From a virus: 64,000 nt of DNA. Below are positions 976 through 17,402 of the stretch, in pieces. Every line of letters starts with the position of its first letter. Position 1 is the stretch's first letter. Position numbers and translations under genes: made by a program. The notes below the pieces were generated by a model, which saw only the letters and a list, made by a program, of their open reading frames with translations, was not told the DNA's origin and did not search any database. The stretch is from the UHGV virus genome UHGV-0214148; one strand, given 5' to 3'.

Positions 976-2228
976 CGTGCTTTAAAGCGATGCATTTCTA
1001 AATACACTTTTTCCCAGGGACCGAATGGACCAACGATTGCTTGAGCATCGTTAATCTTCTTCTGATTATACCACCGGGCTTCACGAAAGACGTAGTTTTG
1101 ACTGTCGAATTCGGTAGTGTTAAATACCCACTCACCTTCCTCCCACGTAGGCCAATAACCTACCGTCTTACCAAATCGATTATTTAAGTACCCTAATGGT
1201 TTTTCAGAATCAGGATCGTTGGGGTCCTTGAGGTAACAGCGTCCCCAAACGGCGTTATGCGAAACACCCACGACTTCTTCTTCTAAATACGGATTATCTA
1301 CCGTAAAGATAAAAGAGGATTCGTGGAGTAAAAGTGCCTTTAATGTTTCGGGGTTGCGAATACGTTGGACATTAGTAGGTGTTGATAAATCCCCCACACC
1401 GATGGCGTCCCAGTCGTAATAGCGACGGGTTTCCAGAACGGTCCGTGCAAGATCAAAATTCGGTAAAGAAATCATGATCGCACGGTCGGAGAAATAACCC
1501 CCCGGAGGCAACCAACGTAACAGTCCACCGATGACGAAACCCACCGTTTTTCCCGTGATAGATTCGGGCAGCGAAATCATTAACGTGGAGTAATAGTCAC
1601 GTGTAGTGTCGAGCTTGTTTAGGGTAAGGTTGGCAATGGGGTAAGTTTTAACATTCCCTAACTGACCAAAAACCATACAGCCGATATCTGGCGTACAGGC
1701 TCTCCGTACGATTTTACCGGCCCCGGGTAATCGGACACCTACGGTATCTGTCTGGTGCGGTACCCATTGACCGTTAATGTTGTACAGTACACTATTACGG
1801 TATTTGTCCTTCCACTTGTCCTCACAAACGATGACAACGTCATCAGCATCATCTAAGCTGAAATCTTGACTGTGGTGGTACCCAGGCGGACACAGGTACG
1901 TTTCAACGGGTACGTCGGCATTAATCGATTGGTAATGTGCCCAACCGAATTCGAGTTTCGGCAATCCGGCTTTTAGAGTGGGGATGACGTTTCCGGCTTT
2001 TTCATTTAACCAATCTTGTAAAGTGTCTGTTCGGTTTTGTAGTTCGGCAAGATGATATTGGCTGACTAACGTATAGTCTTTACCAAGTGCACTTAAACCG
2101 ATCTCAAAGGTGTGGTAGTCTGAACACAACGTAGTTAAGGGTTGCGTGACATCGATGGCTCCCCAGGTACGGGACTCTCGAGAGAAGCCAAAAGCGCTGT
2201 CGGGCCGCACTTGATAAGCAGTAGTCAC
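966..2228 (-). CDS. hypothetical protein (420 aa)
   Basis: Long ORF; GAGGA SD-like sequence about 8 nt upstream of ATG 2228; no motif recognised. Confidence 0.6.
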   Translation of the reverse strand: MTTAYQVRPDSAFGFSRESRTWGAIDVTQPLTTLCSDYHTFEIGLSALGKDYTLVSQYHLAELQNRTDTLQDWLNEKAGNVIPTLKAGLPKLEFGWAHYQSINADVPVETYLCPPGYHHSQDFSLDDADDVVIVCEDKWKDKYRNSVLYNINGQWVPHQTDTVGVRLPGAGKIVRRACTPDIGCMVFGQLGNVKTYPIANLTLNKLDTTRDYYSTLMISLPESITGKTVGFVIGGLLRWLPPGGYFSDRAIMISLPNFDLARTVLETRRYYDWDAIGVGDLSTPTNVQRIRNPETLKALLLHESSFIFTVDNPYLEEEVVGVSHNAVWGRCYLKDPNDPDSEKPLGYLNNRFGKTVGYWPTWEEGEWVFNTTEFDSQNYVFREARWYNQKKINDAQAIVGPFGPWEKVYLEMHRFKARKK

Positions 2229-2296: not shown

Positions 2297-5200
2297 ATGG
2301 CTGTCGTCTTAGACCCACACTTCAAAAAACCGGGGAATAAAATAACCGGTGAAGCGGTCGCCGTCATTGGTACGAAATACCGAATGTTGGTACCTGCCCA
2401 CGCCCCTTTTTTCACCACATCCCTGGTGGTCAAGAGCGGCGGCAAAACACTGACCTTAGGCGACGATTACATTATTACACACCCGTACGAGACCGGTATG
2501 TTGCGCACAGCCTATCTCATTCACGGGATGATTTGGATTGTTAATGACAAATACAAATCGAATTTTACGGTAGATTACCACGCCGTTGGTTGTGGTCAGG
2601 CTACCCAACAACAGATTACCGCAGAACGCGAACTCAATAAAGATAAATACCCGACTACGTGTCAGTGGGACACCGTCATCGGGGACGTTTACTTTCCGCC
2701 GGTCGATATCCAGTTCGATTGGGAGAATTGGAAAGGTGAACTGGAATTAATGCAGGCTATTGCTGGATTAGGCGATTCGTTAGGGGAAGTCGTGAGTCGA
2801 CTTAACCCCATCGCACGCAATACCCTGGATTTAGAATACCGTGCTAACAGCAAGGTTATCACTTCCGAGCAGTATGCCGCATACGACAATAAAGGTGGGT
2901 TCACCTACAACACTACCCGTCATCGTTATAGCTTGAGTTATAAAACTGCAACCTTTAACAACTACGCCCTGTCAGTGAAACATAGAATTCCTGCTATTCT
3001 GCCAGACATGACGAAATTGAATCCAAACGAACAGATCGATTGGATGCTCTGTTATGCTAACGGCGGGGCAAGTATTCTACGGCTGCAGCTAAAACAGCGC
3101 AAAATCTCACTGGTCTTAACGGTCGCTATTGGTAGCGGTTCAACAAACTACGATTATACGTTAATCAACGGTTTAACTGACGATGAGTTAAAAAACGATA
3201 TCGATTTTAGTGTAACCCGTCAACCCGGAAACGGTGTTTACGTCATCGTAGTAAAAACAAATAAACAGACCATGGATTATACATTCAATGTCGATACGCC
3301 ACCTGATGAGTTCTCGGCAGGGTATTCGAAAACGGATGTTGCTAAATGGTTGAAGTCTAAAACGAACATTAACCTGAACTGGTATGCTGGACAAAAAGAT
3401 TATGTTCAAATTCGTTCTTTACCCGGTGCACCAGAACCTGACGTCGATAACGATGTTTACCAGTTAATAGTTAAATACCATCAATTAGTTGAGCAGCTGT
3501 ATCGTAACGCGCCTGCACACGAACACGTTACACGTAAGGACAACCCGCACACCGATACGTGGGGCCCGATCCGTGCGTTACAGCTGAATGGTATTGCGTC
3601 GGATGCCGCGTTAGCTTACGGGAAAACGAAACAACAGTTAACGGATTATGTTAATGCTAAGTACCCAACACAAGCAACGTTAACCGCACAGAAAAAACTG
3701 CTTCGTGAATCGGCGAACAAGAACGTTAACGGCACGATTACCACACTTCCGGGTTTTACTTCGTTCACGACGGAAGTTGATCCGGTTTCGATGTCGAAAT
3801 ACGTGAGTCCTCGTTTTAGCGAAAGCTACGTTAGTAATGGTCACAGGTATCACGGTGCGCTTCGTTACACAGGAACGAAGAGTGGATTCGCCACTTCTTT
3901 TAATGCGGTACCTGCCAACCTGCAAGATATTGACTTTATTGTTACCGGACGTAAAACAGCGTCTGGTAATGAAGCTGTCGGTACGGTTAGCCTACGTTTC
4001 TATCAGAAACCTGGTACTAACTCTGGAAAATTTATCCAGCTTACAGGTGAAATTTCTGCGGGTAAAGTCGGCGTTAAGTTGGAACTGAACGGTTTTTCGA
4101 ATACCACACCGGAAGTTCAGTATCTTTCCCAAGCCCCTAATCCAGCAATACCGGATGGGGATTTTACTCTGCGTTTTCAACTGAAACGCACAGGGAACGT
4201 GTTTGATGTCGTTATTACCATAAACGGCAAGACATACAGTGCACGTGTTAACTTCACTAACATGGACGCTGCACTAGAAGCATTGGAGAATAGCCACCAC
4301 TTTAAATCATTGATCAGTAATGTTGCTGACAACGTCACTATTAGCTCGGGGAATAAAGGTAACACGGTTACCATTAAGAAAGCGCCCGACGTCGTTGACG
4401 GGACCCGTTTAGGTGCCCAGTTTGTCGTTGACCCGAAATCCATTAAGTTTATTGGACAAGGTTCAACCGAGGTTAATGCGGGGAATAACCCTGTAACGTT
4501 TCAAGCAGGTACTAACCAACTTATATTGTATCCTGATGATCGTGGGTTACAGTGGCGTGGTAAGAAACTCTTAGACCCCACTACCGTGGCTCCGTATCTG
4601 CCAGGCAATACCGCGGGCGGTACGGGATTATTCTACGGTACATCTACAACCACGGTAGAGCTTACCGGTAGCGGGATAAAAGCATCGCCGTTCGTAGCGA
4701 CTTTTATTCTCCCTACCGCGACCGATACAACAGCCCTGGCAGCTTGGCAGTTGACCGATGAGTTTGGTACCGCTGAAAACCTTGCAGCAACGCCAGCACT
4801 GATTGAAAAACTCGATGCGGAGTTCACCGGTAAATTAGTTGCGGTTAAATCGTACATTAACGACATGCAACTTACCAGCTCGGTCACTATCGACAAAATT
4901 ACCTTTGGTTTAGGTAACGTTGCGAATACACCCGATGTCAATTTACCGATTTCTACAGCACAACGTGCGGAGTTAGATAAATACTCGCCTAAAGTTCACC
5001 AACACCCGTTTACCGCTTTTGGTACTGGGAACGCAACCACAGCGAAACGTGGTCTGATTAAATTTGGTCTGGATGTGGATGATGCGACTTTAGCACTCGA
5101 TGGGAGTGTGGTAATGGCGCAGACTACCCAGATTGAAAAATTGGAAAGTGCTGTCGGGGGTGTTGACTCGGAGGCACGTCTCGACATTATACGTTTTGGT

Positions 5201-6619
5201 AAGTCTGGTAACGACTTAATTGATGTTACGGTCAAAGACAAAATACTGGTTACACTTCCAGCATCAACGTATTTTATCGGTGGCGAAACATACACCGTGC
5301 CGTTGACGACGATTAACGTCAGTGAACGTTTTCCGAAGTTGAATACAGAAATCTACGCGGGGATTTTTGTTGATATTGTTGACAACAAAGCGAAGTACAT
5401 TATTCACGACAGCTACAGTCAAGCTGAAACGGATACCATGACGCGTGTGGGATTAATCGGCGTCAATGACCTTTCTGAAGTGTTCGTTACAGAGATGCGT
5501 AACGTCACACGGCTGGACGATTTCCGTGAACTGAAAGATCACGCTGCTGACGATAACGCGCATATTCACCGCTCCACGACACGTGCAGTGCTTGGGTTAG
5601 CTAACTTAACGGTAGGTGCGCCCTGCTGGGCTTCGGGACTCCAGGCAGTAGTACGTGGTGAAGCAGATTGGCGTTATGTCGTCGGTGGACAGTATAGAGC
5701 CTTAGACGGGGTGAAATACGACCAGCTCGCATCAAAGTGGGTTTTCGATGCGAAAGGGGTAAGTGATAACCTTCATGGTTTTATTCACAACTTATTCCCG
5801 ACTTTCAAAAACGCAGGAATGCGGGTAAGTTGGGAAACAGAAAGCAACGCAAAAACCGGAACAGTGTTAGAAACTGTTTTAGGTTGTTGGAAGAACACCG
5901 ACGGCGAGTTTATGCGGTTGTCATTACTCATCACTCGCGGTTATCGTTTAACTGACAGTAACGGTGAATATTGTTACGCAGGGTTCGGTTTGAACTTCGG
6001 TAGCGGGAAATCGGTAGTGGTAGGTTTCACACCAACGAAGCGTGTTACAGCTGCACCGTGGAGTTCATTACAACCTGACGTAACGTTTACCCACACCCGT
6101 GGTGCAAACAACGCAATAACGTTTAATGCATCGCTGACTTTAGCTGGCACTGTGTATACTATCGTGGTGTTTTTATCCGCGACAGATAAATACGTAAGCT
6201 GTACGGCAGCAGGGGGAACTACGCAGAAAATCCCATTAGCCGACCGTTTAACCGGGTTCAATATCGAACCTATCGTTAACGATCCGTATACCCCTATTTA
6301 CTACGGTTTAGGGGGACTTTATGAGGATGAGGTTCGTGCCAACATCCGCTCTACAGCAGACAGCGCAACTGCGAACAAAGTCTACGGTACGTTGTTGGAC
6401 TATGTTAGCAACTATTCCTCATTAAATCGAGTACGCGTCATGGAATTGGCCGGTGTCAGCTCAGACCCCGAAACGCTTAATGCGTTAGTGGCAACTGAAT
6501 TTAATAACAGCCTGGCGGATTACGCTGCGTTACCGATACCTCCTTATCTTAACAAGGAGCGCGTAATGTCGTTTATCGACACCAACAATAAAGTGCAGGC
6601 GGTAATCATTCGCGATTAA
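2297..6619 (+). CDS. tail fibre protein (1440 aa)
   Basis: GGAG SD; N-terminal PFF...G.DY anchor motif shared with the next three genes; contains the T4/lambda-type fibre motif FGLGNVANTPD..LPISTAQ....KVHQH. Confidence 0.7.
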   Translation: MAVVLDPHFKKPGNKITGEAVAVIGTKYRMLVPAHAPFFTTSLVVKSGGKTLTLGDDYIITHPYETGMLRTAYLIHGMIWIVNDKYKSNFTVDYHAVGCGQATQQQITAERELNKDKYPTTCQWDTVIGDVYFPPVDIQFDWENWKGELELMQAIAGLGDSLGEVVSRLNPIARNTLDLEYRANSKVITSEQYAAYDNKGGFTYNTTRHRYSLSYKTATFNNYALSVKHRIPAILPDMTKLNPNEQIDWMLCYANGGASILRLQLKQRKISLVLTVAIGSGSTNYDYTLINGLTDDELKNDIDFSVTRQPGNGVYVIVVKTNKQTMDYTFNVDTPPDEFSAGYSKTDVAKWLKSKTNINLNWYAGQKDYVQIRSLPGAPEPDVDNDVYQLIVKYHQLVEQLYRNAPAHEHVTRKDNPHTDTWGPIRALQLNGIASDAALAYGKTKQQLTDYVNAKYPTQATLTAQKKLLRESANKNVNGTITTLPGFTSFTTEVDPVSMSKYVSPRFSESYVSNGHRYHGALRYTGTKSGFATSFNAVPANLQDIDFIVTGRKTASGNEAVGTVSLRFYQKPGTNSGKFIQLTGEISAGKVGVKLELNGFSNTTPEVQYLSQAPNPAIPDGDFTLRFQLKRTGNVFDVVITINGKTYSARVNFTNMDAALEALENSHHFKSLISNVADNVTISSGNKGNTVTIKKAPDVVDGTRLGAQFVVDPKSIKFIGQGSTEVNAGNNPVTFQAGTNQLILYPDDRGLQWRGKKLLDPTTVAPYLPGNTAGGTGLFYGTSTTTVELTGSGIKASPFVATFILPTATDTTALAAWQLTDEFGTAENLAATPALIEKLDAEFTGKLVAVKSYINDMQLTSSVTIDKITFGLGNVANTPDVNLPISTAQRAELDKYSPKVHQHPFTAFGTGNATTAKRGLIKFGLDVDDATLALDGSVVMAQTTQIEKLESAVGGVDSEARLDIIRFGKSGNDLIDVTVKDKILVTLPASTYFIGGETYTVPLTTINVSERFPKLNTEIYAGIFVDIVDNKAKYIIHDSYSQAETDTMTRVGLIGVNDLSEVFVTEMRNVTRLDDFRELKDHAADDNAHIHRSTTRAVLGLANLTVGAPCWASGLQAVVRGEADWRYVVGGQYRALDGVKYDQLASKWVFDAKGVSDNLHGFIHNLFPTFKNAGMRVSWETESNAKTGTVLETVLGCWKNTDGEFMRLSLLITRGYRLTDSNGEYCYAGFGLNFGSGKSVVVGFTPTKRVTAAPWSSLQPDVTFTHTRGANNAITFNASLTLAGTVYTIVVFLSATDKYVSCTAAGGTTQKIPLADRLTGFNIEPIVNDPYTPIYYGLGGLYEDEVRANIRSTADSATANKVYGTLLDYVSNYSSLNRVRVMELAGVSSDPETLNALVATEFNNSLADYAALPIPPYLNKERVMSFIDTNNKVQAVIIRD

Positions 6620-6632
6620 GGAGAATTTTTTG

Positions 6633-9600
6633 ATGAAAGCGTATCCTTACGATCCTCGGGGGACGAAAACCGAGAATCACTTCTTAGAGGAGCGTATCAT
6701 CGGGTCAGAAAACAACAACGATCGGGTGGTGATTCTAGACCATCGCCCGTTTTTTGAAGATTTAGTCGTCAGACAACCAGGTTCAACCACCCCACTGAGT
6801 CGTGGGGTGGACTACGAACTGCAATATCAGCTGACGGAACTGGATGACTCGGTAGCAGCCAACGTGTATTGTGGGGTACACCTTATCAACCCTTCCATCA
6901 AAGGCATCGTAACCTTTGAAGGACAAATGCTCGGCGGTACGTTCTACGACCCGTTTGTTGATATTCTCGATGAACTGGTGAAATATTTGAATAACCCAGT
7001 CAGTGCTGACTGGTTGTTATTAGAAGGCAGACCGTCGTTATACCCGGCTACGCCTGCGGCAACGTCCTGGGCGGATTTGCTGAACAAAAAATATTTAGCG
7101 TCGGCAGTTCACGATATTGAATTGAAAACCGACGACGCTAACCAGTTAATTAAAGACAAATTAGCTGAAGTTAAAGCGTTAGTCGCCGCGCTGGGTAAAG
7201 AAATCGAGGCATTTAACTACCCGGCACACATCGCGGAAACCAACCCGCACCAAACTACTTCTGCACAGATTAGCGCACATCCTGTTAACTTGAAAACACC
7301 CGACACCTTTATGGCGTACGGGTTAAAGTTGAAAGCACTGACGGATGAACTGAAAGCGTTTCGTTTACCACAGTCAGTTATTGACACGTATATCTCCCAC
7401 TGGATTTCTTCAGAAGTACGGGGTGTGTTTAACTGTACGGTGTCAGGAAACCGTGCACAATTCCGCTCAAAAAACGGTGAGTCAGAAATCATTTTTGCGA
7501 ATGATGGCTTTACGTTAAAATCCAACGGTTCTGTGGTGTTGGCGGTAGGGCATCTGGAGGGAACGGGTGCAGGACGTTACATTAACTGGCGTGCTGGTAA
7601 AAACACCTTACGTATCGAGTCAACAGGCGATGCTTTAGGGATGAACAAACTCACCCTAAACGGTAACCCGTTACTGACTACCACGGCGTTGATGGAATAC
7701 CAACAAGATCCTGATGCTGGCGGGAGCGGCGGCGGTGACCCTGATGACTCGAAGGTGTACATCGAAGGCCGTAATGGGATTAGCTTCACCGGTAAAGGCT
7801 CTCGGACCGATCCTATCGTGGGTACTATCGACCCGACGAAAGCGACAACCGCTGAAAAAGGTGTTGTTAAGCTTAAAACTGGTAAAGGTACAGAAACGGT
7901 TGGGGTTGCAGCAACGCCAGCGTCATTAACACCTTATTCGACCGACCTATCAGGGTATGTGGCTAAAACGACCATGATTAACGGTAAGCCAATGAATGAC
8001 GGCTCCAGGACAATCACGAAAGCTGACCTGGGGTTAGGGCAAGCGGATAACACCGCAGACCTTGACAAACCGTTGTCAACCGAGTTAACTAAGGCGGTTA
8101 GCGGTCTAGCAGATGTAGGCCATCATCACGATTGGTCGGAGTTAGGCATTTATAAAGCTTCTCAATCTGTTTACGGTATTGGACGTTATGCAACTAACCA
8201 GAACGGTTTGGTTGAAAACCGTGCAGTGGTACCGAACATCTTAAAAGAGCTTTCGGCACGTTTAAGTGTGGTCGCTGCGGCAATTGCAAATGCGAAAGAA
8301 GGAACAGTAACGGATTTCGCTGCTGTAAAAGGCGCAGACTGGCGATTTAATAGCCAGGGTACGGCAATCTCCGTTCAGGATTTGAAATATTTCTATTTGC
8401 TGGACGGCACGAAAGGTGACAGTACCGTTACCGGTGCGATTGACCTGCAAACCACCCCGATGTTTAACTGGTTCTCACCGAATAACCAACTTGAGCTGAC
8501 TTGGGCTACGGGTAAGGTGAGTAACGGTACGGGAATCAACTGGACGGGTATTGAAGAACCGCCATTGATGGGGTTCCAGTCTGTCCCGGTAGGTAAAACC
8601 GCTACGCAGATGGGTGACCAGTCAGTTGTTACTGTATTGGCAAAAACGCGTGTAAAAGCATACCAACCGAAGCTCTGGGTTTATGCTGCTGGGGGTGGTC
8701 CGGTTACGGTTTACATTAACGGTATCCAGGCCGCTTCAGGCGAGTCCCCACTCGTTGCGGTGTACGAAACGTCGTCAGACGTTGAAAATTACACAGTGGC
8801 GGTTAAAGCCGAGTGCAGCGACACGACTAAATCCGCAGCGGTACAGTTCGAAGTTTACGATGGTGACTACCCCGTTTATTTCAGTGGTCCTGAAACGCGC
8901 GTAGAGCTTCTCCAGGAGTTTGTTACAACGCACGTAGGGGTTCGTCACTATTTGTACGTTAACATGCTCACAGGCTCTTTGTATTCGCGTGCTGAACCGA
9001 TTCAGAGTATTGCCGTTGACCCAGAGCGCGGTTATATCGGATATGTTGATATCGTTCCTGGTCAGTCTTACGCGAATAAAACTGTGGGGTTTGAAACCAC
9101 GTTTGATTTCGGGAAAAGTGCGGAAGTTAGCGAGCACATCAGCACTCGTAAGGCACACGGACTCAGCGCTGTTGACTGGGCGTTAACGGATAACCCACGG
9201 CTGCCGTTATTAAACCGTGCTATTGCTGAACCAAGAGCGTGTATCTTTAGGAAACCGTTAGCAACCGCTACAGGGGATGTTTTCCATCTTGTCAGTCGCG
9301 GCCTTTATACCTACGCACACAACCAAAACGTGAAGTCGAGTCTTCAATACGTTGTGATACCTGAAGGTGCTACGCCGTATTGTTGGTTTACACCATTTAA
9401 CCCGAAAGAAAACAACGCACCGACATTCGAAGGCTCGTTTGCGTTCGATGTTGACGATGTTGGTGGAACGCAAGCCCTTGCTGCTGCGCCGGATTTGGTT
9501 CTATGCACGTCAACGCAAGGTAGCAGCGTTAAACGTCGCTATCTGCGCATTGACCTAACTACCAAAACCTGTAAGTTGGGGATTGGTTCCCGTTCAGATT

Positions 9601-10814
9601 CTGCTGTTACGGATATTCCGTTAGTGATGGAGGAGTCTGGGGAAACGGCAGTGGCCGCAACGTTTAAGGATGTGTTGTTCAACGGTGAGGAAACCAACCC
9701 CGCGACGCTCGACTTGATAGGTTGGGGTGCCAGCCGAGATAAAATTTCTGCAAACCATGCACCTCGTGGCATGATTCGGTATCGTTACAACGTAAACACA
9801 CGGGTATTACGTTTAGCACTGACGTTCTCACAGTTCGGAACGACAACAGTTAAACATCGACAGCTGGAGATTCAATTCCCGTTCGATTTAGTGGATTATT
9901 TCACTGGCGACGGTGTGGGATTGTCGTTTAAAGAACTGTCTGCGAAATGTCGTGTAACGATTAGTCACGCGCTGATTGATCCGGCTACGAGTAACGTCGA
10001 CATTGATAAGTACCATTACTTACGTTCGTTGTTCGAATCGTATCTGGATTCTTCCGTTGGGTATTTGGCTGATACCAAAGACGTTGATTTTAGTCAGTCT
10101 GTGATTGACCCTGCGACTTACGAGGTTAGTCAAAAATACCGCGTTACAGAAAGCATCGCGCTGCCAACCGGCCAGGGAAGTGTTGCTGTTTCCCATGACG
10201 GCCAGTTGCCTGCGCAGTTCTTTGACCGTAAGCTGTCTCGTGGTGCCTTGATGGCCAAGAAAGGTGAACTCAACGCTTCCTGGAATAATGAGTGGAGCAC
10301 GACTAAAGCTGCTGCGAGTCGTTATCGCCATAAACTCATTCTACGCTTTGCACAAGGTGCTGATAAACAGCAGTATCGCGTTGCAAAAGTGGCCGGGACG
10401 GTGAAGTCTAACTGGCCGGGTAAAGTGATTATTGGTGATGCCGGGAAGGACCCGTATGTATCGGCTATTGATAGCGTATCTTTTGCGCTTTCGACCGCCT
10501 CTGATACAGGTAAAGCGATTACTCTTACGCCAAAGGACTTACGTGTAGGTCAGGACATTTATATTGTCTTAGAACCACCCGGCAATAATCCAGAAGGTTA
10601 TGAACTTAACTTCACTTGTTCGTTAGATGTCACTGACGAGAAAAGTGTCCGTCAAGATCAACTCAATGCACAGAGTTTCGAACTCCGTAGCGGCGAAAGT
10701 CAGTTCTTAATGGAGAAACGCAACCCGTACCACATCACGAGTAAAGCGTGGAAGTGGATTTTGGCTGTACTGAAACGTGAACTTAACGGGAAGCAGTTAG
10801 GGGATCGTACTTAG
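6633..10814 (+). CDS. tail fibre protein (1393 aa)
   Basis: AAGGAG SD 9 nt upstream of ATG 6633 (track start 6630 is TTG); N-terminal PFF...GVDY motif; fibre motif ADLGLGQADNTADLDKPLSTELTKAV..GHHH; Gly-rich linker. Confidence 0.7.
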   Translation: MKAYPYDPRGTKTENHFLEERIIGSENNNDRVVILDHRPFFEDLVVRQPGSTTPLSRGVDYELQYQLTELDDSVAANVYCGVHLINPSIKGIVTFEGQMLGGTFYDPFVDILDELVKYLNNPVSADWLLLEGRPSLYPATPAATSWADLLNKKYLASAVHDIELKTDDANQLIKDKLAEVKALVAALGKEIEAFNYPAHIAETNPHQTTSAQISAHPVNLKTPDTFMAYGLKLKALTDELKAFRLPQSVIDTYISHWISSEVRGVFNCTVSGNRAQFRSKNGESEIIFANDGFTLKSNGSVVLAVGHLEGTGAGRYINWRAGKNTLRIESTGDALGMNKLTLNGNPLLTTTALMEYQQDPDAGGSGGGDPDDSKVYIEGRNGISFTGKGSRTDPIVGTIDPTKATTAEKGVVKLKTGKGTETVGVAATPASLTPYSTDLSGYVAKTTMINGKPMNDGSRTITKADLGLGQADNTADLDKPLSTELTKAVSGLADVGHHHDWSELGIYKASQSVYGIGRYATNQNGLVENRAVVPNILKELSARLSVVAAAIANAKEGTVTDFAAVKGADWRFNSQGTAISVQDLKYFYLLDGTKGDSTVTGAIDLQTTPMFNWFSPNNQLELTWATGKVSNGTGINWTGIEEPPLMGFQSVPVGKTATQMGDQSVVTVLAKTRVKAYQPKLWVYAAGGGPVTVYINGIQAASGESPLVAVYETSSDVENYTVAVKAECSDTTKSAAVQFEVYDGDYPVYFSGPETRVELLQEFVTTHVGVRHYLYVNMLTGSLYSRAEPIQSIAVDPERGYIGYVDIVPGQSYANKTVGFETTFDFGKSAEVSEHISTRKAHGLSAVDWALTDNPRLPLLNRAIAEPRACIFRKPLATATGDVFHLVSRGLYTYAHNQNVKSSLQYVVIPEGATPYCWFTPFNPKENNAPTFEGSFAFDVDDVGGTQALAAAPDLVLCTSTQGSSVKRRYLRIDLTTKTCKLGIGSRSDSAVTDIPLVMEESGETAVAATFKDVLFNGEETNPATLDLIGWGASRDKISANHAPRGMIRYRYNVNTRVLRLALTFSQFGTTTVKHRQLEIQFPFDLVDYFTGDGVGLSFKELSAKCRVTISHALIDPATSNVDIDKYHYLRSLFESYLDSSVGYLADTKDVDFSQSVIDPATYEVSQKYRVTESIALPTGQGSVAVSHDGQLPAQFFDRKLSRGALMAKKGELNASWNNEWSTTKAAASRYRHKLILRFAQGADKQQYRVAKVAGTVKSNWPGKVIIGDAGKDPYVSAIDSVSFALSTASDTGKAITLTPKDLRVGQDIYIVLEPPGNNPEGYELNFTCSLDVTDEKSVRQDQLNAQSFELRSGESQFLMEKRNPYHITSKAWKWILAVLKRELNGKQLGDRT

Positions 10815-10852
10815 GACAGACTGCCTGCGGGCAGTTGTGTGTCCGTAGGTAA

Positions 10853-10889
10853 CCCCTCCCTGTAATGGGGAGGGGTATCCATTTTATTT
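10853..10889 (+). terminator. intrinsic terminator
   Basis: Stem CCCCTCCC/GGGAGGGG (10853-10860/10868-10875) followed by a T-rich tract; a second short hairpin sits at 10820-10835. Confidence 0.6.
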
Positions 10890-10908
10890 AAAAGTAGGAG
10901 TCTTTACG

Positions 10909-13900
10909 ATGCCGAGAGAAGACGCGGCGCAGTTTAACGGTACGCTAAGCACAGCGACGTACCCTAACCGATTTAACGTGGTCATTCCGCCTGAAGGACC
11001 TTTTTATCGTATCGGATTAAAACTCACAGTAGCCGACGATACCGCGCCTAACGGACGTCGTACTCTGATTGAGGGGCTGGACTACTATTTAGGCTATTAC
11101 TTTAAAGAACTCGCCGAAGCTGAACAAGATCAGATTTATGGCGGGTTTATGTTGCTTACTGCAACAGAAATCGAATATGAGATTTTAGGGGTAGCACGGC
11201 AGTATCGTGTACCGCAATCTGAAATCGGGAAGTTCTTAGTTCGTACTGACCTGAAAGACCCACGTAACGTGGACTGGTCGGAGTTAATGGCGTACGCGCC
11301 GGTTATTCAACCAATCGACCCCCCTGCTAACTTAGAAGAAGCTATTCTGAGGGACGAGGTCGTTAAAGCGTTGAACGATATCCGCAAGAAAATCATTCAG
11401 CGTTCAACAGAGTTAGATGCGGCCTTCACCGAAGTCACTAACCTTATTTACGAGAACGGTAAAAAGATTTTCGATGAAGAACTATACCAACACCACCTTA
11501 ATCCTAACGCTCACCAGTATACGACCAATGACGTTGGGGCCCTTCCGGTTTTAGGACGTGCTGTTGACGCTACAAAAGCGTTTGGGTTGACAATTGACCA
11601 ACTGGCTACGCTGATGGGTTCGGCGGGCATTGAGCAATCAGACGTTGAACAGCTAATGGGTGAAGCCCTCGGTACCGTTTACGGTCGTTGGGGCACCACG
11701 AACGGTAACGAACTAACGTTTAAAACACCGGGTGGACACATCATCAGCATCCGTGGTGATAAGTGGTTAATTACCTCCCCGCAACCGTTAGTGATTAAAG
11801 CAGACCAAGACAACAACGAATCCGGTTTGGCGGTTGAGTTTAGTGCGGGACTGAATACGCTTTGGGTACACTCTGGGTCAGAACAGGATGTATTAGCACC
11901 GGTCTATAACTCTGTGTATCTCGTTACACCAGAAATGGTGAACATGTACCTGACGTCTGTAACGTTACTTGAAGCGAATGCCTATTTCAAACCGTCAGAC
12001 ACCGTAAAACCGTACGGTACAGCGAAGCAGTCTAACCCACTAACGTTGAACGCGAATATTCCCACAGCAACCGAGTCGGTTTATGGGGTGTTTTCGATTA
12101 CGAATATCGCAACCTCTGTAGCGCTAGGCACTGCTATTTCCCAAAAGGCTGTGACCGAGTTAAAAAACCGGTTGGACTTGTACGTTGACGACGACTACAC
12201 GGTTAACGGTAGAGGGTTTGTTAAGACAGGCGACAACATGGTGTTAACCTTAACGAAGGCCGATTTCGGTATCGATAAGATGAATAACACCACACCCATC
12301 GCTAAACCGGTAACAAAAGCATTAGCGAACGTGCTGAAAAATAAAAGTTTGAAGGTACACACGCACACTACCGCTGATTTGGATAATGTCCCGATTGGTA
12401 GCGCAACAGTGGACGGTATCTTACAGCTGTGGGATGCGATTGATACCACGAATGATAAAGCCGTCACATCACGCCAAGGGTGGCTGTTCGCAAAAGAGAT
12501 TAAGAAGGTCTCTGATAAACTGAATACCCTCTTGCCCGCATGGACAACGGCCGGGAGCAAATATACCAACAATTCGATATTGCCGATCTTGTCGATGGGT
12601 AATTACGAAGGTTATGGTAAAAACATGGATGCGCTCCAGATGGTTATAGGGGTACAACAAGGTAAGCTTTATGCTTTAATTAGCTCTAAATCCGCCCTTC
12701 CGGGAACCGAGGGTATTTATTACGCCGTTGCCGGGTTAAAAAACGACAAAAGTCTTGGTGAAATTTACAAAACAACGTTCCGTTATAAGCCGAAAGGGTT
12801 AGAGACGAATTATCCTGGGGTGGAACTAAAAGAAATTACCGTTACGGGTACCGAAGCATTTATAGCGAAAGGCAGCGACGATAATTACTATTTAGTTAAA
12901 CTGAACGGTTCAATGGATTACACCAAACATACCGATGTCAGGTTGGTAACTTTCTCAGAATTTGTTTCAGAAACAACATGGGAATTTGTGCCGAATATGT
13001 TCATGGATCGTGTGGTCATAGCCGATAACGGCGTCTATGTTTTGCGTACGATGCTAATGGCCGATCTGAAAAACAATAGTCTGGTGGACTACATTAAGGA
13101 TACTCCGCAACCTATGTTCCGTGTTGGGTTATTGCGACTTAATAAAACCGATCGGTTTGAACAGGTTGATTTAAGCTCTACACGAAAAATCGGTAAGTGT
13201 GCCGATTTGGTTGAACCTGGCGCGTTCGATGTAGATAATCCGAATACGAAGCGTCTTGCCTACTTCACTGCGGAAGGCAAAGCGTTGTGGACAGTGAATT
13301 TACAATTAACTAGAGGGGTGTCAAGATGGATAACGCCCGTTGTTAAGGACGGTAATCTGTTAACCGTCGGCGTGTCTGGCGTTTGTCTTGGTTTTTCTTC
13401 AACGAAAGGTACCACATTCGGGCCATGGAATGGTGCTTATCGTCTCGACCTATTAACCGGGGAGGTTGGGTTAGAGACAACTAACATCTTCCCAATCAAA
13501 ATCGATACTACAGGTTGCTACTTAAAAGACGGAACAAAAATAGAGCTGAAATGGAAATGGGCTACTCGAAGTTCTGGCTATATGGCCGACAATAGAATCT
13601 GTGTCGGTGATATGGTTTATTCTTGCTGCTGTTCGACAGAAAAACAACTTGCACCGTCTCTCCATTACCAGAAACTCCCAGAAGGAGTTAGTTATCTGGA
13701 CTATGTTAAGTTGAGTGCGGGGTATGAGGGGCAATCTACGTTTGAAAATCGGATAAACCCTGTGGTGGGTTCGGTGTGGAAACCGTCTATGACTCTACCA
13801 TTGTTCTTCCCAGGAACAAACAAAGTATGGCTTAAACATCAAAAAACGGCTTATTTCATTGAAGCCGAATATGATAAAGATACGACTTATGGTTATCCTG

Positions 13901-16095
13901 GATACGGCGGGTTTGGACCAACATCCCGCCGTGTTGAAAAAAAAGCGAACGAATACGGCGTATTGACAAATATACCGCTGGTTGTTACGCCAGACATACC
14001 GAAAGGTCTACTAGATGGGGCTTACTTTATCGGTGCTGAAAGTAAACCATGTAAAGTTGTTTACGGTACCACTACGGTGGCTAGTGATCGGTTGTCTATC
14101 GATGCGGCAGAATGGGCGAAGTTGACTAATATTGTTCAGTCCAGCCAGTTCTCTGGGGCTTCTAACGGCAACGCCTATGAGCGGATTAGCGTAGCTAAGA
14201 CCAAAAAGAACAACTACAGTTTGTCCTTTTGGGTGCTTGGTCAAACGATGTCTGGTGGTCCGCTTTGTATCGCGATAGTGAGTCTTATCTATAAAGACAC
14301 TGACGGGGTAAATAAGTTTGCTTTTTACTTCTTTCAGGTAAAACCGACTATAACCAACGGGGTCATAAGGTTCGTTAGTTCGGAAGCGAGAATGATGACG
14401 TTCAGGGAAAAAATGGCCAGTAACGCCATTAATCTCTCACCCACAGCTTTTAATGGTGAACTTAAACAACGCTCCGGTCAAGTTTTCCTTTATTCGCAAG
14501 ACGGACAAAAGTTCAGATTCTCAATACATAACCTGGTTGGCGGGAATCTTGTAGGATCAGAGATTTCTTTTGCTTTTGGGATAAACTTGACTAAAAAAGG
14601 AGAATGGTTTACCGGCGAAATTCATCGGGCGTGGGGCTATACGTATACGCTGAATAATACATCTGAAGTCTATATACCCGATCTCTCGGGCATCGCGCTA
14701 TTGACTTGTAACTCGGAAGATTTAAACGAGTTGTATCTCGGTGGCGAACAGTATAGAATCTCTGATTTGTTTAACAAAAAATATACTGTTATCGATAAGA
14801 TTATTATTGGCGGCGTACAAACACAGAGCGGTTGGAATTTCTATCTGACGGAGGAAACCGAGTTAAGTTTTGGAAATAAAAGATATACCGTTCCAAGATG
14901 GTCCGTTGATTTAAGCGATGAATTCCCGACTAATCACGCTAACCAGACATTCTACGTTTATGCTGAAGTGGTCGGTTCTACTGCCCAATACCGCATCGGT
15001 TTAGAGCAGTTAGCTGATACCTCGTCGAGACTGTTTGTTGGGACAGTAACCACTGATTCGAACCGTATTACGGATATCAGTATCGATAAAGTAAAACGGT
15101 TAGGTCGTGTAAAAGAGCTGGAAAATCATGCCTCGGTTGTTGATCAGCACGATGTGGCGCAGGCGTTCGACAGGAAAACTGGTCCACTATTAACAGTGGT
15201 TAATAAACCCGTTAAAGCCATTACAGCATCTGCGAGCAAGGGTGCTGGGTATGTCGATGGCCAGAAATGGAATACGTTGTCCGGGATTGCAACGCGGCCC
15301 AGGTTGCCGGTACAGGAAACCTATTCAGGTTATAAAAGTATCAGCAGGGTGGCGTATGAGAACTGCGCTGACCAGTTCTGGCAGAAAGCGGTTGCTGCGA
15401 ACGTTGCAGCGGCTACTGCTTCTGAGAACAAACAAGCAGCAACCGCGAACATGAAGTGGCTGGGCGCGTATACGAGACCGACTACCGGTGCGAGTGTGTG
15501 TCTGGTACTAAGTCTACGTGTTAAAGTACCTGGTAATCCCGGCACCGCTAATCGTAGACTGAAAATCAGGCTTGCGGCTCCGACAGGTATAACTGAAGTT
15601 CGTTACGGGTTAAATCAGTCTGGCGGTACGATGGCTGAACAGACAGTAACGTTGACTGCCAACAGTTATCTGGAAAAAGAGCACGCCGGATTTAAGCCAG
15701 CCGAAGAAGTTCGTGTTCATGCTACCTTTGTCATTCCAAAAAATGAATACGAGAGTTACCGTACGAAGTTCGGTGCGGTTCAGTTGATTGACGTTGAATC
15801 GAACACTGTCATTAAACAGACAGATATCGACACACCGTTTTTCGTGTACACCGCCACGGAGCAAGCGGCACAATCTGGTTTGGTGTATAAAGCGGTTAAG
15901 AGTCAGTTTCGTCAACTCCCGGCTCAACCTGTCGTCATTGTAACTGATGGACAGACAGGGACTACGCCACCGGTGAAAACCTCGTTTGCTGACGGGACAT
16001 TAACGGTCTACGTGGCAACCACGTACGACGCGGTTAACCCAGCACAAACACGCGATATCGACAAGCTCCAGTTCAATCTTATGTTTACATCTTAA
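10909..16095 (+). CDS. tail fibre protein (1728 aa)
   Basis: AGGAG SD; N-terminal PPEGPFY...GLDY motif; fibre motif GIDKMNNTTPIAKPVTKAL...KVHTH. Confidence 0.7.
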   Translation: MPREDAAQFNGTLSTATYPNRFNVVIPPEGPFYRIGLKLTVADDTAPNGRRTLIEGLDYYLGYYFKELAEAEQDQIYGGFMLLTATEIEYEILGVARQYRVPQSEIGKFLVRTDLKDPRNVDWSELMAYAPVIQPIDPPANLEEAILRDEVVKALNDIRKKIIQRSTELDAAFTEVTNLIYENGKKIFDEELYQHHLNPNAHQYTTNDVGALPVLGRAVDATKAFGLTIDQLATLMGSAGIEQSDVEQLMGEALGTVYGRWGTTNGNELTFKTPGGHIISIRGDKWLITSPQPLVIKADQDNNESGLAVEFSAGLNTLWVHSGSEQDVLAPVYNSVYLVTPEMVNMYLTSVTLLEANAYFKPSDTVKPYGTAKQSNPLTLNANIPTATESVYGVFSITNIATSVALGTAISQKAVTELKNRLDLYVDDDYTVNGRGFVKTGDNMVLTLTKADFGIDKMNNTTPIAKPVTKALANVLKNKSLKVHTHTTADLDNVPIGSATVDGILQLWDAIDTTNDKAVTSRQGWLFAKEIKKVSDKLNTLLPAWTTAGSKYTNNSILPILSMGNYEGYGKNMDALQMVIGVQQGKLYALISSKSALPGTEGIYYAVAGLKNDKSLGEIYKTTFRYKPKGLETNYPGVELKEITVTGTEAFIAKGSDDNYYLVKLNGSMDYTKHTDVRLVTFSEFVSETTWEFVPNMFMDRVVIADNGVYVLRTMLMADLKNNSLVDYIKDTPQPMFRVGLLRLNKTDRFEQVDLSSTRKIGKCADLVEPGAFDVDNPNTKRLAYFTAEGKALWTVNLQLTRGVSRWITPVVKDGNLLTVGVSGVCLGFSSTKGTTFGPWNGAYRLDLLTGEVGLETTNIFPIKIDTTGCYLKDGTKIELKWKWATRSSGYMADNRICVGDMVYSCCCSTEKQLAPSLHYQKLPEGVSYLDYVKLSAGYEGQSTFENRINPVVGSVWKPSMTLPLFFPGTNKVWLKHQKTAYFIEAEYDKDTTYGYPGYGGFGPTSRRVEKKANEYGVLTNIPLVVTPDIPKGLLDGAYFIGAESKPCKVVYGTTTVASDRLSIDAAEWAKLTNIVQSSQFSGASNGNAYERISVAKTKKNNYSLSFWVLGQTMSGGPLCIAIVSLIYKDTDGVNKFAFYFFQVKPTITNGVIRFVSSEARMMTFREKMASNAINLSPTAFNGELKQRSGQVFLYSQDGQKFRFSIHNLVGGNLVGSEISFAFGINLTKKGEWFTGEIHRAWGYTYTLNNTSEVYIPDLSGIALLTCNSEDLNELYLGGEQYRISDLFNKKYTVIDKIIIGGVQTQSGWNFYLTEETELSFGNKRYTVPRWSVDLSDEFPTNHANQTFYVYAEVVGSTAQYRIGLEQLADTSSRLFVGTVTTDSNRITDISIDKVKRLGRVKELENHASVVDQHDVAQAFDRKTGPLLTVVNKPVKAITASASKGAGYVDGQKWNTLSGIATRPRLPVQETYSGYKSISRVAYENCADQFWQKAVAANVAAATASENKQAATANMKWLGAYTRPTTGASVCLVLSLRVKVPGNPGTANRRLKIRLAAPTGITEVRYGLNQSGGTMAEQTVTLTANSYLEKEHAGFKPAEEVRVHATFVIPKNEYESYRTKFGAVQLIDVESNTVIKQTDIDTPFFVYTATEQAAQSGLVYKAVKSQFRQLPAQPVVIVTDGQTGTTPPVKTSFADGTLTVYVATTYDAVNPAQTRDIDKLQFNLMFTS

Positions 16096-16135
16096 CGCCA
16101 CGGGACAAGGACGTCTCGGATTAAGGAGAGTGGCC

Positions 16136-17335
16136 ATGGCCTCCATTGTATACCAATACCCTTTAGATTTAACGGGAAGCCTAACCTCTAACGCCGTGGA
16201 GCGTCAGGTTACGTTAGGTACAGGTAAAGTTAACCGTGCGTTTGCTTTTCCTGATGGACCGTTTTATGCTGATACGTTCCGCTTGCGGGTTGCTAACCGA
16301 CCCGATGCGACGTATGAGCGCGGAACGGACTATGAGTTGATTTTTGCACACCCGGCTTACGAGAAATTGACGAAGAACCGGGAAGTGGTAATGGCGGTTG
16401 TTGTAACGAACACCGCGATTCCGACCGATATCACGGTATCGGCGCAAGTAGTCGGGGGCCCGCAGTCGGCAAACGTGACTGCGATAGAACAGGCGATTGC
16501 TGAGTTGAATCTCGATAATCGAACTGTTGGCTTTAAAGACTTGCGAAATGTTCCTGATACATTTCCGTCGGCACCGACGTATAAAGACGTCGGCGATATT
16601 TACGGCTTCGAATATATCATTACAGTGCTCGCTGGCATTAAAGATGCGATAACGGCGGGCGATGCTGTACAGCTTGAGAACATCAAAGCGATTCTCGAAA
16701 GCCTGAAAAACGATTTCCTGGACGCACTGAACGCGCACATTAACGCCACGGGTAACGTCCACCATCTGGACATTCATCAGGTTAACGGGTTAACGGAAAC
16801 GGAGATCCGTGCACTGATTCGTGACGTACAGTCTGCCATCGATGCAACGATTGCCGATATCAATGCATTGAAGAAAGCGGACGAAGCGTTAGGAAAACGT
16901 ATTGATGCTGTTGTCAAATCTTTGGAAGCGTGGAACGACCAACTTAACGTCGTTGCACAAAACTACCAGAAAATGGCACTGGCAATGGCGAACCTAAACT
17001 CGTTAGTGTTACAGTTACAGAAAAATATCAACGATCTGAGCACCAAACTCAACCAAGCGATTCAACGTATTGCTGCGTTAGAACAGCGGGGTAATGAGTC
17101 CGATCAGAAAATTGATAAACTGCAACAAAACCTGGATGCGCTTAAACAGCAGGTTAATAATAACACGAACGCAATCAGTCAGGCGAACCAGAACCTGCAA
17201 AACCATATTGCGGCAGATAACCCACACACAGGCTATCTCCACAAGAAATACGGTGGTGTGGTTCAGGCTCCAGTACACGTTAACGCTAACTTGACGTCCC
17301 GTGATGACGTTCAGGCAGAAGCGGGTACGAAATAA
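16136..17335 (+). CDS. short coiled-coil tail-fibre-like protein (399 aa)
   Basis: AAGGAG 7 nt upstream of ATG 16136 (track GTG 16130 is too close to the SD); N-terminal FPDGPFY...GTDY motif; long heptad-like Q/L/N-rich segment. Confidence 0.6.
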   Translation: MASIVYQYPLDLTGSLTSNAVERQVTLGTGKVNRAFAFPDGPFYADTFRLRVANRPDATYERGTDYELIFAHPAYEKLTKNREVVMAVVVTNTAIPTDITVSAQVVGGPQSANVTAIEQAIAELNLDNRTVGFKDLRNVPDTFPSAPTYKDVGDIYGFEYIITVLAGIKDAITAGDAVQLENIKAILESLKNDFLDALNAHINATGNVHHLDIHQVNGLTETEIRALIRDVQSAIDATIADINALKKADEALGKRIDAVVKSLEAWNDQLNVVAQNYQKMALAMANLNSLVLQLQKNINDLSTKLNQAIQRIAALEQRGNESDQKIDKLQQNLDALKQQVNNNTNAISQANQNLQNHIAADNPHTGYLHKKYGGVVQAPVHVNANLTSRDDVQAEAGTK

Positions 17336-17390: not shown

Positions 17391-17402
17391 TAAGGATACG
17401 TG

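What the first reader, a model, noticed from the sequence alone, without database searches (positions are those of the whole stretch)
2297..17335. Four consecutive fibre genes with a shared N-terminal anchor motif and T4-type fibre motif
All four plus-strand proteins begin with a related segment (PFF or PFY, then G.DY within about 60 residues). The three large ones carry the conserved long-tail-fibre motif (GLG.NT.D..KP.ST.....H.H), and the fourth has a related HHLDIH. C-terminal regions are unrelated. This is the pattern of a multi-fibre, multi-receptor virion with interchangeable receptor-binding domains on a common attachment domain.
Basis: partly seen in the sequence, partly recalled or inferred. 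Interest (0 to 1): 0.5.

Follow-up and report, generated by a model that had tools for sequence, protein, structure and literature searches.

The report
Jumbo-phage baseplate fibre paralog module
Four neighbouring genes of a giant phiKZ/SPN3US-like phage encode baseplate fibre proteins that share one attachment domain. The family is already known, but here one member carries a swapped internal cassette that probably sets which host surface the phage grips.

Summary
The four ORFs exist and are homologous at their N-termini. PHROG 2163 hits all four, and the PF[FY]..G.DY pattern occurs in only these 4 of 86 ORFs. They are orthologues of SPN3US gp170, gp169, gp168 and gp167. They are also the counterpart of phiKZ gp131-135, and they sit next to a divergently transcribed gp130 homologue at 966-2228(-). 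The family is published as SPN3US 'Paralog family C'. The 2026 phiKZ atlas places six gp131-like N-domains and a six-helix bundle under gp130 at each fibre site.

- The GLG..NT.D..KP.S...HxH motif is absent from T4 gp34-37, so it is a generic fibre motif, not a T4 one.
- HHLDIH in the small protein belongs to a different, proximal H..NPH motif that all paralogues share.
- The C-terminal regions are not all unrelated. P1 and P3 share a ~100-aa domain.
- P4 is a uniformly conserved coiled-coil protein with no variable domain.

New here: near-identical relatives differ by an internal 780-aa cassette in P3 (98% / 31% / 86% identity). That cassette is predicted to be beta-propeller-rich.

The exchangeable binding module is supported. 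Four independent fibres are less likely than one co-assembled fibre complex.

Verdict: new member of a known kind, modest interest.

The parts
966..2228 (-). P0, 420 aa. Homologue of phiKZ gp130 and SPN3US gp171; the likely docking protein of the outer baseplate under which the fibre bases attach. Transcribed divergently from P1.
   Evidence: BLASTP against phiKZ gp130 gives E = 3e-13 over the full length. It is 81% identical to Asesino gp191 and matches phrog_3337. Synteny with phiKZ gp130/gp131 is shown. The role of gp130 comes from PMC13250141.
2297..6619 (+). P1, 1440 aa. Orthologue of SPN3US gp170 and Asesino gp190 (PHROG 7557).
2297..2776 (+). P1 gp131-like N-terminal anchor domain (aa 1-160; PFF at aa 37, GDDY at aa 55).
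   Evidence: PHROG 2163 E = 1.2e-17. Alignments A1 and A4. This is the only part conserved at DNA level with GenBank phages.
2837..3451 (+). P1 hypervariable insert (aa 181-385) between the anchor domain and the H..NPH motif. GC is 0.424, against 0.47-0.48 in the flanks.
   Evidence: Only 15-25% identity to orthologues whose flanks are 50-85% identical. GC.
3737..4456 (+). P1 insertion of about 240 aa (aa 481-720), present in this lineage and absent from the SPN3US and Asesino orthologues.
   Evidence: P0116, 92% identical, also has it.
4907..5005 (+). P1 fibre motif GLGNVANTPDVNLPIST...HQH (aa 871-903).
5264..5563 (+). P1 'domain X' (aa 990-1089), shared with P3 and with tail proteins of many other jumbo phages.
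   Evidence: HMM E = 6e-13. BLASTP P1-P3 2e-5.
6633..10814 (+). P2, 1393 aa. Orthologue of SPN3US gp169 and Asesino gp189 (PHROG 8078). It has the anchor domain at aa 1-165 and the fibre motif at aa 467-499 (nt 8031-8129). Identity to orthologues falls steadily from the N- to the C-terminus.
   Evidence: ATG start with AAGGAG 8 nt upstream.
10909..16095 (+). P3, 1728 aa. Orthologue of SPN3US gp168 and Asesino gp188 (PHROG 7449). It has the anchor domain at aa 1-160 and the fibre motif at aa 454-486 (nt 12268-12366).
   Evidence: hhalign of the P3 family against phiKZ gp131 matches the N-terminus, probability 96.9%, E = 1.9e-10.
12529..14868 (+). P3 exchangeable internal cassette (aa 541-1320), predicted to be rich in beta-propellers. 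DNA similarity to the close relative L006 is lost at nt 12545-14893. GC is 0.433, against 0.47-0.48 in the flanks.
14773..15153 (+). P3 'domain X' (aa 1289-1415), at the 3' edge of the cassette. It is widely shared among the tail proteins of jumbo phages.
   Evidence: phrog_3573 E = 9e-28.
16136..17335 (+). P4, 399 aa from the ATG (401 aa from the GTG at 16130). Orthologue of SPN3US gp167. Made of the anchor domain, a helix, the NVHHLDIH motif (nt 16760-16777), a single ~139-residue helix (nt 16796-17212) and a short tail. It is uniformly conserved.
   Evidence: PHROG 2163 E = 5e-103. BLASTP against phiKZ gp135 E = 1e-14 over the N-terminal 211 aa. AF2 model. Start codon. Conservation.

Best explanation
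Identity (probability about 0.95). This is the baseplate-fibre module of an SPN3US/Asesino-like, phiKZ-related jumbo myophage. P0 is the gp130/gp171-type docking protein. P1-P4 are the gp131-type paralogues, equivalent to SPN3US gp170, gp169, gp168 and gp167.

Shared architecture. Each paralogue starts with the same ~160-aa beta-sandwich anchor domain. A helix of about 45 residues follows, then an H..NPH motif.

Mechanism (inferred, probability about 0.55). By analogy with phiKZ, the anchor domains and helices of several paralogues co-assemble into one hetero-oligomeric fibre base: six N-domains plus a six-helix bundle, docked beneath P0 on the outer baseplate.
- P4 contributes a conserved coiled-coil strut.
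- P1, P2 and P3 contribute a colinear stem, ending in the GLG..NT..KP.S..HxH fibre motif.
- Beyond the stem lie long, fast-evolving distal arms made of globular all-beta domains, including beta-propellers in P3. These arms contact the host surface and pass the signal to the baseplate.

Specificity. Specificity is retuned by recombination between conserved flanks. This swaps internal cassettes (P3 aa 541-1320; P1 aa 181-385 and 481-720) while the anchor and stem stay fixed.
For: Shown here:
- N-domain homology among the four proteins and to phiKZ gp131/133/134/135.
- P0 is homologous to gp130, in the same divergent arrangement.
- Same gene order and sizes in Asesino, SPN3US and a metagenomic relative.
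- The anchor is the most conserved part and the distal parts the least conserved.
- A sharp cassette replacement in P3 between phages that are 98% identical in the flanks, with a GC dip.
- The N-domain family has 3251 clusters, almost always with the domain at residue 1-10 and with proteins of 166-2164 aa.
- The N-domain is often fused to tail-fibre domains: Peptidase_S74 in 15 of 64, plus Collar and Gp53-like_C.

From the literature:
- SPN3US gp168-170 are virion proteins absent from a tailless mutant, and gp171 is essential (PMC5694885, PMC5105663).
- SPN3US gp167-171 are near-equimolar by mass spectrometry. Spectral counts per unit mass are 0.74-1.9, against 0.93 for the 12-copy portal.
- The phiKZ cryo-EM atlas describes the hetero-hexameric fibre base under gp130 (PMC13250141).
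- phiKZ gp131-135 all lack transposon insertions (PMC12676376).

Inference: the paralogous N-domains are only 16-27% identical to each other, yet 70-100% identical to their orthologues. This fits non-equivalent, fixed positions in one complex.
Against: - The phiKZ fibre-base composition was assigned by docking AlphaFold models into maps of about 4.4-4.6 A resolution. Its authors call it a candidate.
- No SPN3US-clade baseplate structure was found.
- HxH and GLG..NT..KP motifs, and the Peptidase_S74 domains on distant N-domain relatives, are typical of homotrimeric fibres.
- Spectral counts cannot separate 12, 18 or 36 copies.
- The good monomer model of P3 does not exclude trimerisation.
- No receptor or binding data exist for any of these proteins.
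- The solved-structure copy searched here returned no phiKZ fibre-base chain, so the fold identity of the N-domain could not be tested.
Confidence: 0.55

Rival explanations
1. P1, P2, P3 and perhaps P4 each form their own homotrimeric fibre. Each docks by the common N-domain at an equivalent site, giving a virion with several independent fibres and several receptors.
For: Trimer-type fibre motifs (HxH, GLG..NT..KP.S) occur in P1-P3. Distant N-domain relatives end in Peptidase_S74 chaperone domains, which are typical of homotrimeric fibres. The distal parts of the three large proteins differ and evolve fast. Roughly equal abundance in SPN3US virions also fits this model.
Against: phiKZ shows six N-domains per site and only two classes of site (PMC13250141). 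All phiKZ paralogues are needed on a single host. The four orthogroups are invariant in number and order rather than mixed and matched. The paralogous N-domains have diverged to 16-27% identity, which is unexpected if they bind equivalent sites. P4 has no distal binding domain.
Confidence: 0.3
2. The large proteins are mainly structural parts of the oversized peripheral baseplate, such as struts or a shield. Host recognition is done elsewhere, for example by DUF7941 filaments or other tail proteins.
For: SPN3US annotations say only 'virion structural protein'. [quoted passage not shown] DUF7941 proteins, proposed as a host-recognition fibre cloud in Goslar, are encoded close by.
Against: The divergence gradient and the cassette swap are the signature of host-interaction surfaces. 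The beta-propeller, lectin-like and glycosidase-like folds point the same way. phiKZ gp131 maps to fibres at the baseplate periphery.
Confidence: 0.08
3. The distal propeller domains are enzymes (glycan depolymerases or esterases) that clear a surface polysaccharide, rather than simple binding domains.
For: The best fold matches of P3 include the GH130, GH117, GH43 and GH32 families, sialidases and the phi92 endosialidase.
Confidence: 0.07

Closest known systems
Pseudomonas phage phiKZ gp130 plus the gp131-gp135 fibre module (Sycheva 2012; structural atlas, PMC13250141)
   Same: Both have a divergent gp130-type gene followed by a tandem run of paralogues. The paralogues share the same N-terminal domain, helix and H..NPH motif. 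The C-termini differ between paralogues. Both include a distal beta-propeller (gp131; predicted for P3).
   Different: There are four paralogues here rather than five. Three are giants (1393-1728 aa, against 457-771 aa) with an extra shared stem and fibre motif. There is no sequence similarity to the gp131 propeller. P4 is a coiled-coil member with no obvious phiKZ equivalent. No similarity was found to phiKZ gp145 or gp146, although PMC5105663 lists ORF145 as the gp168 homologue.
Salmonella phage SPN3US gp167-gp171 ('Paralog family C' = gp168-170) and Erwinia phage Asesino gp187-gp191
   Same: These are direct orthologues in the same order and of similar sizes. Identities to Asesino are P0 81%, P4 76%, P1 about 47%, P2 52% and P3 43%. 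In SPN3US they are virion proteins absent from tailless particles.
   Different: The window phage is a distinct lineage with no GenBank phage closer than these. P1 carries an extra ~240-aa insertion. P3 carries a divergent central cassette. The published family lists three members, and the gp167-type protein is shown here to be a fourth.
T4 long tail fibre proteins gp34-gp37
   Same: Both are long fibre proteins with HxH motifs and modular exchange of receptor-binding parts (the latter from general knowledge).
   Different: There is no sequence similarity. The GLG..NT.D..KP.S motif is absent from gp34-37, which contain no KPx[ST] at all. The anchoring domain and the assembly are different.
Branched multi-receptor-binding-protein systems (CBA120/G7C gp10-like adaptors; Klebsiella phage phiKp24, PMC9700779)
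   Same: Several different fibre or spike proteins sit on one baseplate, with conserved N-terminal attachment parts. phiKp24 encodes a protein with this same N-domain (hit H84).
   Different: Those systems use T4 gp10-like docking domains and homotrimeric beta-helix depolymerases, in variable numbers. Here the set is fixed, and no gp10-like or beta-helix domains were detected.

Membership tests
phiKZ gp131-like baseplate-fibre paralogue family (SPN3US Paralog family C) | A gp131-like domain at the extreme N-terminus, homologous to phiKZ gp131/133/134/135 | tested here: met
   PHROG 2163 hits on all four proteins. Alignment with the phiKZ proteins. hhalign of the P3 family against gp131: probability 96.9%, E = 1.9e-10. 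P4 against gp135: E = 1e-14.
phiKZ gp131-like baseplate-fibre paralogue family (SPN3US Paralog family C) | Tandem paralogues next to a divergently transcribed gp130 homologue | tested here: met
   P0 against gp130: E = 3e-13. Gene maps.
phiKZ gp131-like baseplate-fibre paralogue family (SPN3US Paralog family C) | An alpha-helix after the N-domain (the six-helix-bundle element), followed by an H..NPH motif | tested here: met
   AF2 model of P4 has a helix at aa 160-204, then the NVHH loop. The motif is aligned in all paralogues; in P1 it is displaced to aa 406-420 by an insert. The bundling itself is not testable here.
phiKZ gp131-like baseplate-fibre paralogue family (SPN3US Paralog family C) | Location in the virion at the baseplate periphery or on the fibres | not testable with these tools
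   Known only for orthologues. SPN3US gp167-171 are in virions, and gp168-170 are absent from a tailless mutant. phiKZ location is from immuno-gold labelling and cryo-EM.
phiKZ gp131-like baseplate-fibre paralogue family (SPN3US Paralog family C) | Hetero-hexameric assembly of N-domains beneath gp130 | not testable with these tools
   No multimer prediction or map was available. The solved-structure copy searched returned no phiKZ fibre-base chain.
phiKZ gp131-like baseplate-fibre paralogue family (SPN3US Paralog family C) | A distal beta-propeller like the gp131 C-terminal domain | tested here: inconclusive
   The P3 model matches many 5- to 7-bladed propellers. However, it has no sequence-profile similarity to the gp131 C-terminus, and no phiKZ structure appears among the matches listed. 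P1 and P2 were not modelled.
T4-type long tail fibre (gp34/36/37) | Sequence similarity to, or shared motif with, T4 gp34-37 | tested here: not met
   Best BLASTP E = 0.095. No GLG..NT..KP.S and no KPx[ST] in gp34-37.
Homotrimeric fibres or spikes with a C-terminal intramolecular chaperone (Peptidase_S74) | A Peptidase_S74 domain at the C-terminus | tested here: not met
   No Pfam hit in P1-P4. The domain is present in 15 of 64 distant N-domain relatives.
T7-like tail-fibre N-terminal adaptor domain | Fold similarity of the anchor domain to podophage fibre N-terminal domains | tested here: inconclusive
   The top Foldseek hits of the P4 model are chains from podophage tail-complex entries (7y22_e, 8i4m_M, 7ey9_b, 8ck1_B). 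All are non-significant: E = 0.013-0.044, probability 0.44-0.75. Which protein each chain represents was not checked.

The most novel reading that the evidence does not exclude
The reading is that P1, P2 and P3 do not form three separate homotrimeric fibres. Instead they contribute one chain each to a common heterotrimeric stem, joined with a P4 trimer in a hetero-hexameric base. The stem then splits into three different monomeric, propeller-rich arms. Every one of the ~12 fibres would then be a branched, three-headed sensor. Each head would be replaceable on its own, by internal cassette recombination between conserved linker motifs. That would be a fibre design not described for any phage.
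Probability: 0.25. Interest if true: 0.65.

Novelty: new member of a known kind. Interest (0 to 1): 0.3.

Why it matters
Host recognition by phiKZ-like (Chimalliviridae-related) jumbo phages is poorly understood, although these phages are candidates for therapy and resist many bacterial defences. This window adds four things:
- a new lineage of the known gp131-type fibre family;
- evidence that the short gp167-type protein is a fourth member of that family;
- a natural cassette swap with sharp boundaries (P3 aa 541-1320), which points to the likely specificity determinant and to usable junctions for engineering host range;
- evidence that the common N-domain is very widespread (more than 3000 clusters at 50% identity) yet matched no curated Pfam or NCBIfam family in the libraries searched.

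None of this overturns current knowledge.

Tried and rejected
- Pfam and NCBIfam on the four proteins and on their sub-segments gave only coiled-coil noise for P4.
- Sequence searches of the PDB with P1, P2, P3 and P4 gave nothing relevant.
- A PDB search with an N-domain profile gave only a short W..P..F.P..H repeat in a 'tail collar fibers gp4' chain, 9d93.
- A PDB search with the fibre-motif profile gave nothing.
- The T4 relationship was tested and rejected.
- Similarity of P3 to phiKZ gp145 and gp146 was tested and not found.
- The search for homologous proteins with the P3 cassette alone returned no hits. This is a limit of the word index, because full-length P3 recovered 58 homologues, including one with the same cassette.
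- Internal repeats within P1-P3 were looked for by self-BLASTP and not found.
- Foldseek of the P4 model against the PDB gave no significant match for the anchor domain.
- L002 and L004 were not available to Python, so the phiKZ and SPN3US comparisons used the alignment tools instead.
- Sycheva et al. 2012 is not held in the paper library.
Full report
WHAT IS THERE

The interval holds four plus-strand ORFs (translations):
- P1, 2297-6619, 1440 aa.
- P2, 6633-10814, 1393 aa. The ATG lies 8 nt after AAGGAG.
- P3, 10909-16095, 1728 aa.
- P4, 16130-17335. The real start is probably the ATG at 16136, giving 399 aa like its closest homologue, again 8 nt after AGGAG.

Immediately upstream, and divergently transcribed, is a 420-aa ORF (P0, 966-2228, minus strand).

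CHECK OF THE OBSERVATION

The N-terminal resemblance is real.
- The pattern PF[FY].{8,40}G.DY occurs in exactly these four of the window's 86 ORFs of at least 100 aa. Shuffling the first 110 residues reproduces it at 3.5e-4 per protein.
- One PHROG family (2163) matches the N-terminus of all four, with E = 1.2e-17, 4e-30, 3e-40 and 5e-103.
- Pairwise BLASTP alone is convincing only for P2-P3 (1e-19, colinear over ~500 aa) and P2-P4 (1e-6). P1 is weak against the others, 0.03-0.1.

The fibre motif is present in the three large proteins but only loosely as written. The K is replaced by L in P1, and P3 has GID and KPVT.

HHLDIH in P4 is a different element. In alignments it falls on a proximal H-x5-N(P/V)H motif that follows the post-domain helix. 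All four proteins and phiKZ gp131/133/134/135 carry that motif. P1 has it at aa 406-420, displaced by an insert.

The claim that the C-terminal regions are unrelated needs qualifying.
- P1, P2 and P3 share a ~150-aa stem around the fibre motif.
- P1 990-1089 and P3 1289-1415 share a further domain, HMM E = 6e-13. P2 lacks it.

WHAT IT IS

The window comes from a jumbo myophage related to Salmonella phage SPN3US (Seoulvirus) and Erwinia phage Asesino (Erskinevirus).
- At DNA level only the first ~465 nt of P1, plus a few other patches in P1-P2, match GenBank phages, at 71-76%.
- At protein level the block P0-P4 is colinear with Asesino gp191-gp187 and with the SPN3US genes numbered gp171-gp167 in the literature.
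- phiKZ has the same layout: gp130 on one strand and gp131-gp135 on the other.
- P0 is homologous to gp130, E = 3e-13 over the full length.
- P4 matches gp135 with E = 1e-14 over the N-terminal 211 aa.
- A profile of the P3 family matches gp131 residues 7-237, probability 96.9%, E = 1.9e-10, and nothing further along gp131.

WHAT IS ALREADY PUBLISHED

- Ali et al. 2017 defined SPN3US 'Paralog family C' (gp168, gp169, gp170) as baseplate or tail-fibre candidates similar to phiKZ gp131 and absent from a tailless mutant (PMC5694885).
- Thomas et al. 2016 listed gp171 as essential, with phiKZ ORF130 as its homologue (PMC5105663).
- Their supplementary table shows gp167 in the virion as well, but with no paralogue family assigned. 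The evidence here makes it a fourth member.
[quoted passage not shown] The proposed composition is gp131x3 + gp133 + gp134 + gp135 (PMC13250141).
- A transposon screen found no insertions in any of phiKZ gp131-135 (PMC12676376).
- SPN3US is reported to use flagella as its receptor (PMC11428620).

ANATOMY AND EVOLUTION

A profile of the four window N-domains finds 3251 clusters (at 50% identity) among 1.84 billion representatives, of which 2346 have E <= 1e-10. In the listed best hits the domain starts at about residue 1-20, in proteins of 166 to 2164 aa.

Of 64 diverse family members, 15 end in the Peptidase_S74 fibre chaperone domain. Others carry PKD, Collar or Gp53-like_C domains. This is a general N-terminal fibre-anchor module, yet the window proteins match no Pfam or NCBIfam family there.

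The AF2 model of P4 shows the following:
- a confident beta-sandwich at aa ~10-110 (pLDDT about 90);
- a loosely predicted loop;
- a helix at aa 160-204;
- the NVHH loop;
- a single 139-residue helix at aa 223-361;
- a disordered tail.
Foldseek finds no significant structural neighbour. The weak top hits are chains from podophage tail-complex entries.

Against Asesino, P0 (81%) and P4 (76%) are evenly conserved. P1-P3 fall from 70-88% in the first ~120-180 residues to 20-45% distally. Representative orthologues show the same pattern.

THE CASSETTE SWAP

The most informative comparison is with near relatives from SRA assemblies.
- Contig L006 has the same four genes, of 1440, 1393, 1727 and 399 aa.
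- P2 and P4 are 93% identical to their L006 counterparts.
- P3 is 86-100% identical over aa 1-540, 20-46% over aa 541-1320, and 76-86% over aa 1321-1728.
- DNA similarity vanishes exactly between nt 12545 and 14893.
- Among P3 homologues, P0259 carries the window's cassette (96% identity). P0260 has 98% / 31% / 86% identity for the N-terminal, central and C-terminal parts. P0115 and P0261-P0263 repeat that pattern.

So two cassette types circulate on one backbone. The breakpoints lie just after the HxH stem motif and near the start of the widely shared domain X.

The cassette has lower GC (0.433, against 0.47-0.48 in the flanks). So does the hypervariable P1 segment aa 181-385 (0.424).

P1 also has a ~240-aa insertion (aa 481-720) that the SPN3US and Asesino orthologues lack.

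NATURE OF THE DISTAL PART

P3 aa 529-1728 was modelled with 51 homologues. It gives a confident all-beta, multi-domain model (mean pLDDT 81.9, pTM 0.65). The only long disordered stretch is at P3 aa ~1400-1465.
- Foldseek matches tandem beta-propeller proteins and 5-bladed glycoside hydrolases, with E down to 4e-10.

This fits a glycan-binding or glycan-processing head. It parallels the gp131 propeller in kind, but homology to gp131 there is not shown.

THE 'T4-TYPE' LABEL

T4 gp34-37 were fetched and tested. They contain no KPx[ST] at all, and no BLASTP similarity is better than E = 0.095. The motif region gives only weak hits to PHROG families annotated as tail fibre or minor tail protein, and no solved structure. 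It is a generic fibre motif, not a T4 one.

MECHANISM AND ITS RIVALS

Identity as the gp130/gp131-type baseplate-fibre module is near certain. How the four proteins are arranged is inferred.

I favour co-assembly into a phiKZ-like hetero-oligomeric base under P0 (probability about 0.55), for these reasons:
- the phiKZ map shows six N-domains per site;
- all phiKZ paralogues are required on a single host;
- the four orthogroups are fixed in number, order and length across the clade;
- the paralogous N-domains are only 16-27% identical to one another, yet 70-100% identical to their orthologues, which suggests non-equivalent positions;
- SPN3US gp167-171 are near-equimolar and close to the 12-copy portal in spectral counts per unit mass.

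The trimer-type motifs and the S74-bearing relatives support it. The phiKZ assignment rests on docking at 4.4-4.6 A.

A purely structural role (about 0.08) fits the evolutionary pattern poorly. An enzymatic rather than binding role for the propellers is possible but untested (about 0.07).

VERDICT

The family is already described, the T4 label is wrong, the exchangeable unit is internal, and P4 is a conserved strut rather than a receptor binder. This is a new member of a known kind. Interest is modest.

Noticed in passing
window 22954-23484 (-) and 23552-24118 (-): Two adjacent paralogous DUF7941 proteins (Pfam E = 5e-9 and 9e-10; phrog_4862). A 2026 Goslar preprint proposes that DUF7941 proteins polymerise into a host-recognition 'fibre cloud' attached to the peripheral baseplate. 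The close relative L006 has a third copy further on.
   Followed up: partly
window 19475-20398 (+) and 20382-21704 (+): Two overlapping radical SAM / 4Fe-4S genes lie directly downstream of the fibre block. They are conserved in SPN3US, Asesino and L006. Their function in a phage tail-gene neighbourhood is unexplained.
   Followed up: no
window 17400-17798 (+) and 17809-18207 (+): A tandem duplicate pair of 132-aa proteins (both phrog_6085, E about 1e-40) sits right after P4. The equivalent stretch in L006 holds genes of different sizes (92, 69 and 164 aa), so this small region is also variable between close relatives.
   Followed up: no
window 22215-22886 (+), 25314-25988 (-) and 26096-26686 (-): A DUF4376 protein and a phrog_1158 'tail assembly chaperone' lie within 9 kb of the fibre genes, and are possible fibre-assembly factors. 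By synteny with L006, a Glyco_hydro_108 / PG_binding_3 endolysin follows; the window ORF itself was not scanned.
   Followed up: partly
window 2837-3451 and 12529-14868: The two most variable fibre segments have clearly lower GC (0.424 and 0.433) than the conserved fibre parts (0.47-0.49). This fits acquisition from a lower-GC donor.
   Followed up: partly
whole window; L006 (Logan SRR29999939): No GenBank phage is close; the best matches are 77% (aa) for P4 and 43-53% for P1-P3. In contrast, proteins 92-93% identical occur in SRA assemblies, in clusters with hundreds of member sequences (P0001 656, P0115 803, P0259 103). The lineage therefore seems common in sequenced samples, yet no close relative is in the GenBank phage collection searched.
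   Followed up: partly
window 687-914 (+): A small 75-aa ORF sits at the position of the SPN3US gene annotated 'DUF1471 domain-containing protein', between the baseplate assembly gene (outside the window) and P0. It was not analysed.
   Followed up: no
N-domain loop, e.g. P4 aa ~130-150; PDB 9d93 chain La: The W..(L/I)...P..FPP..H segment of the anchor domain resembles a repeated unit in a solved 'tail collar fibers, gp4' chain (profile E = 1.7e-5). This hints that part of the anchor is built from a common fibre repeat.
   Followed up: no
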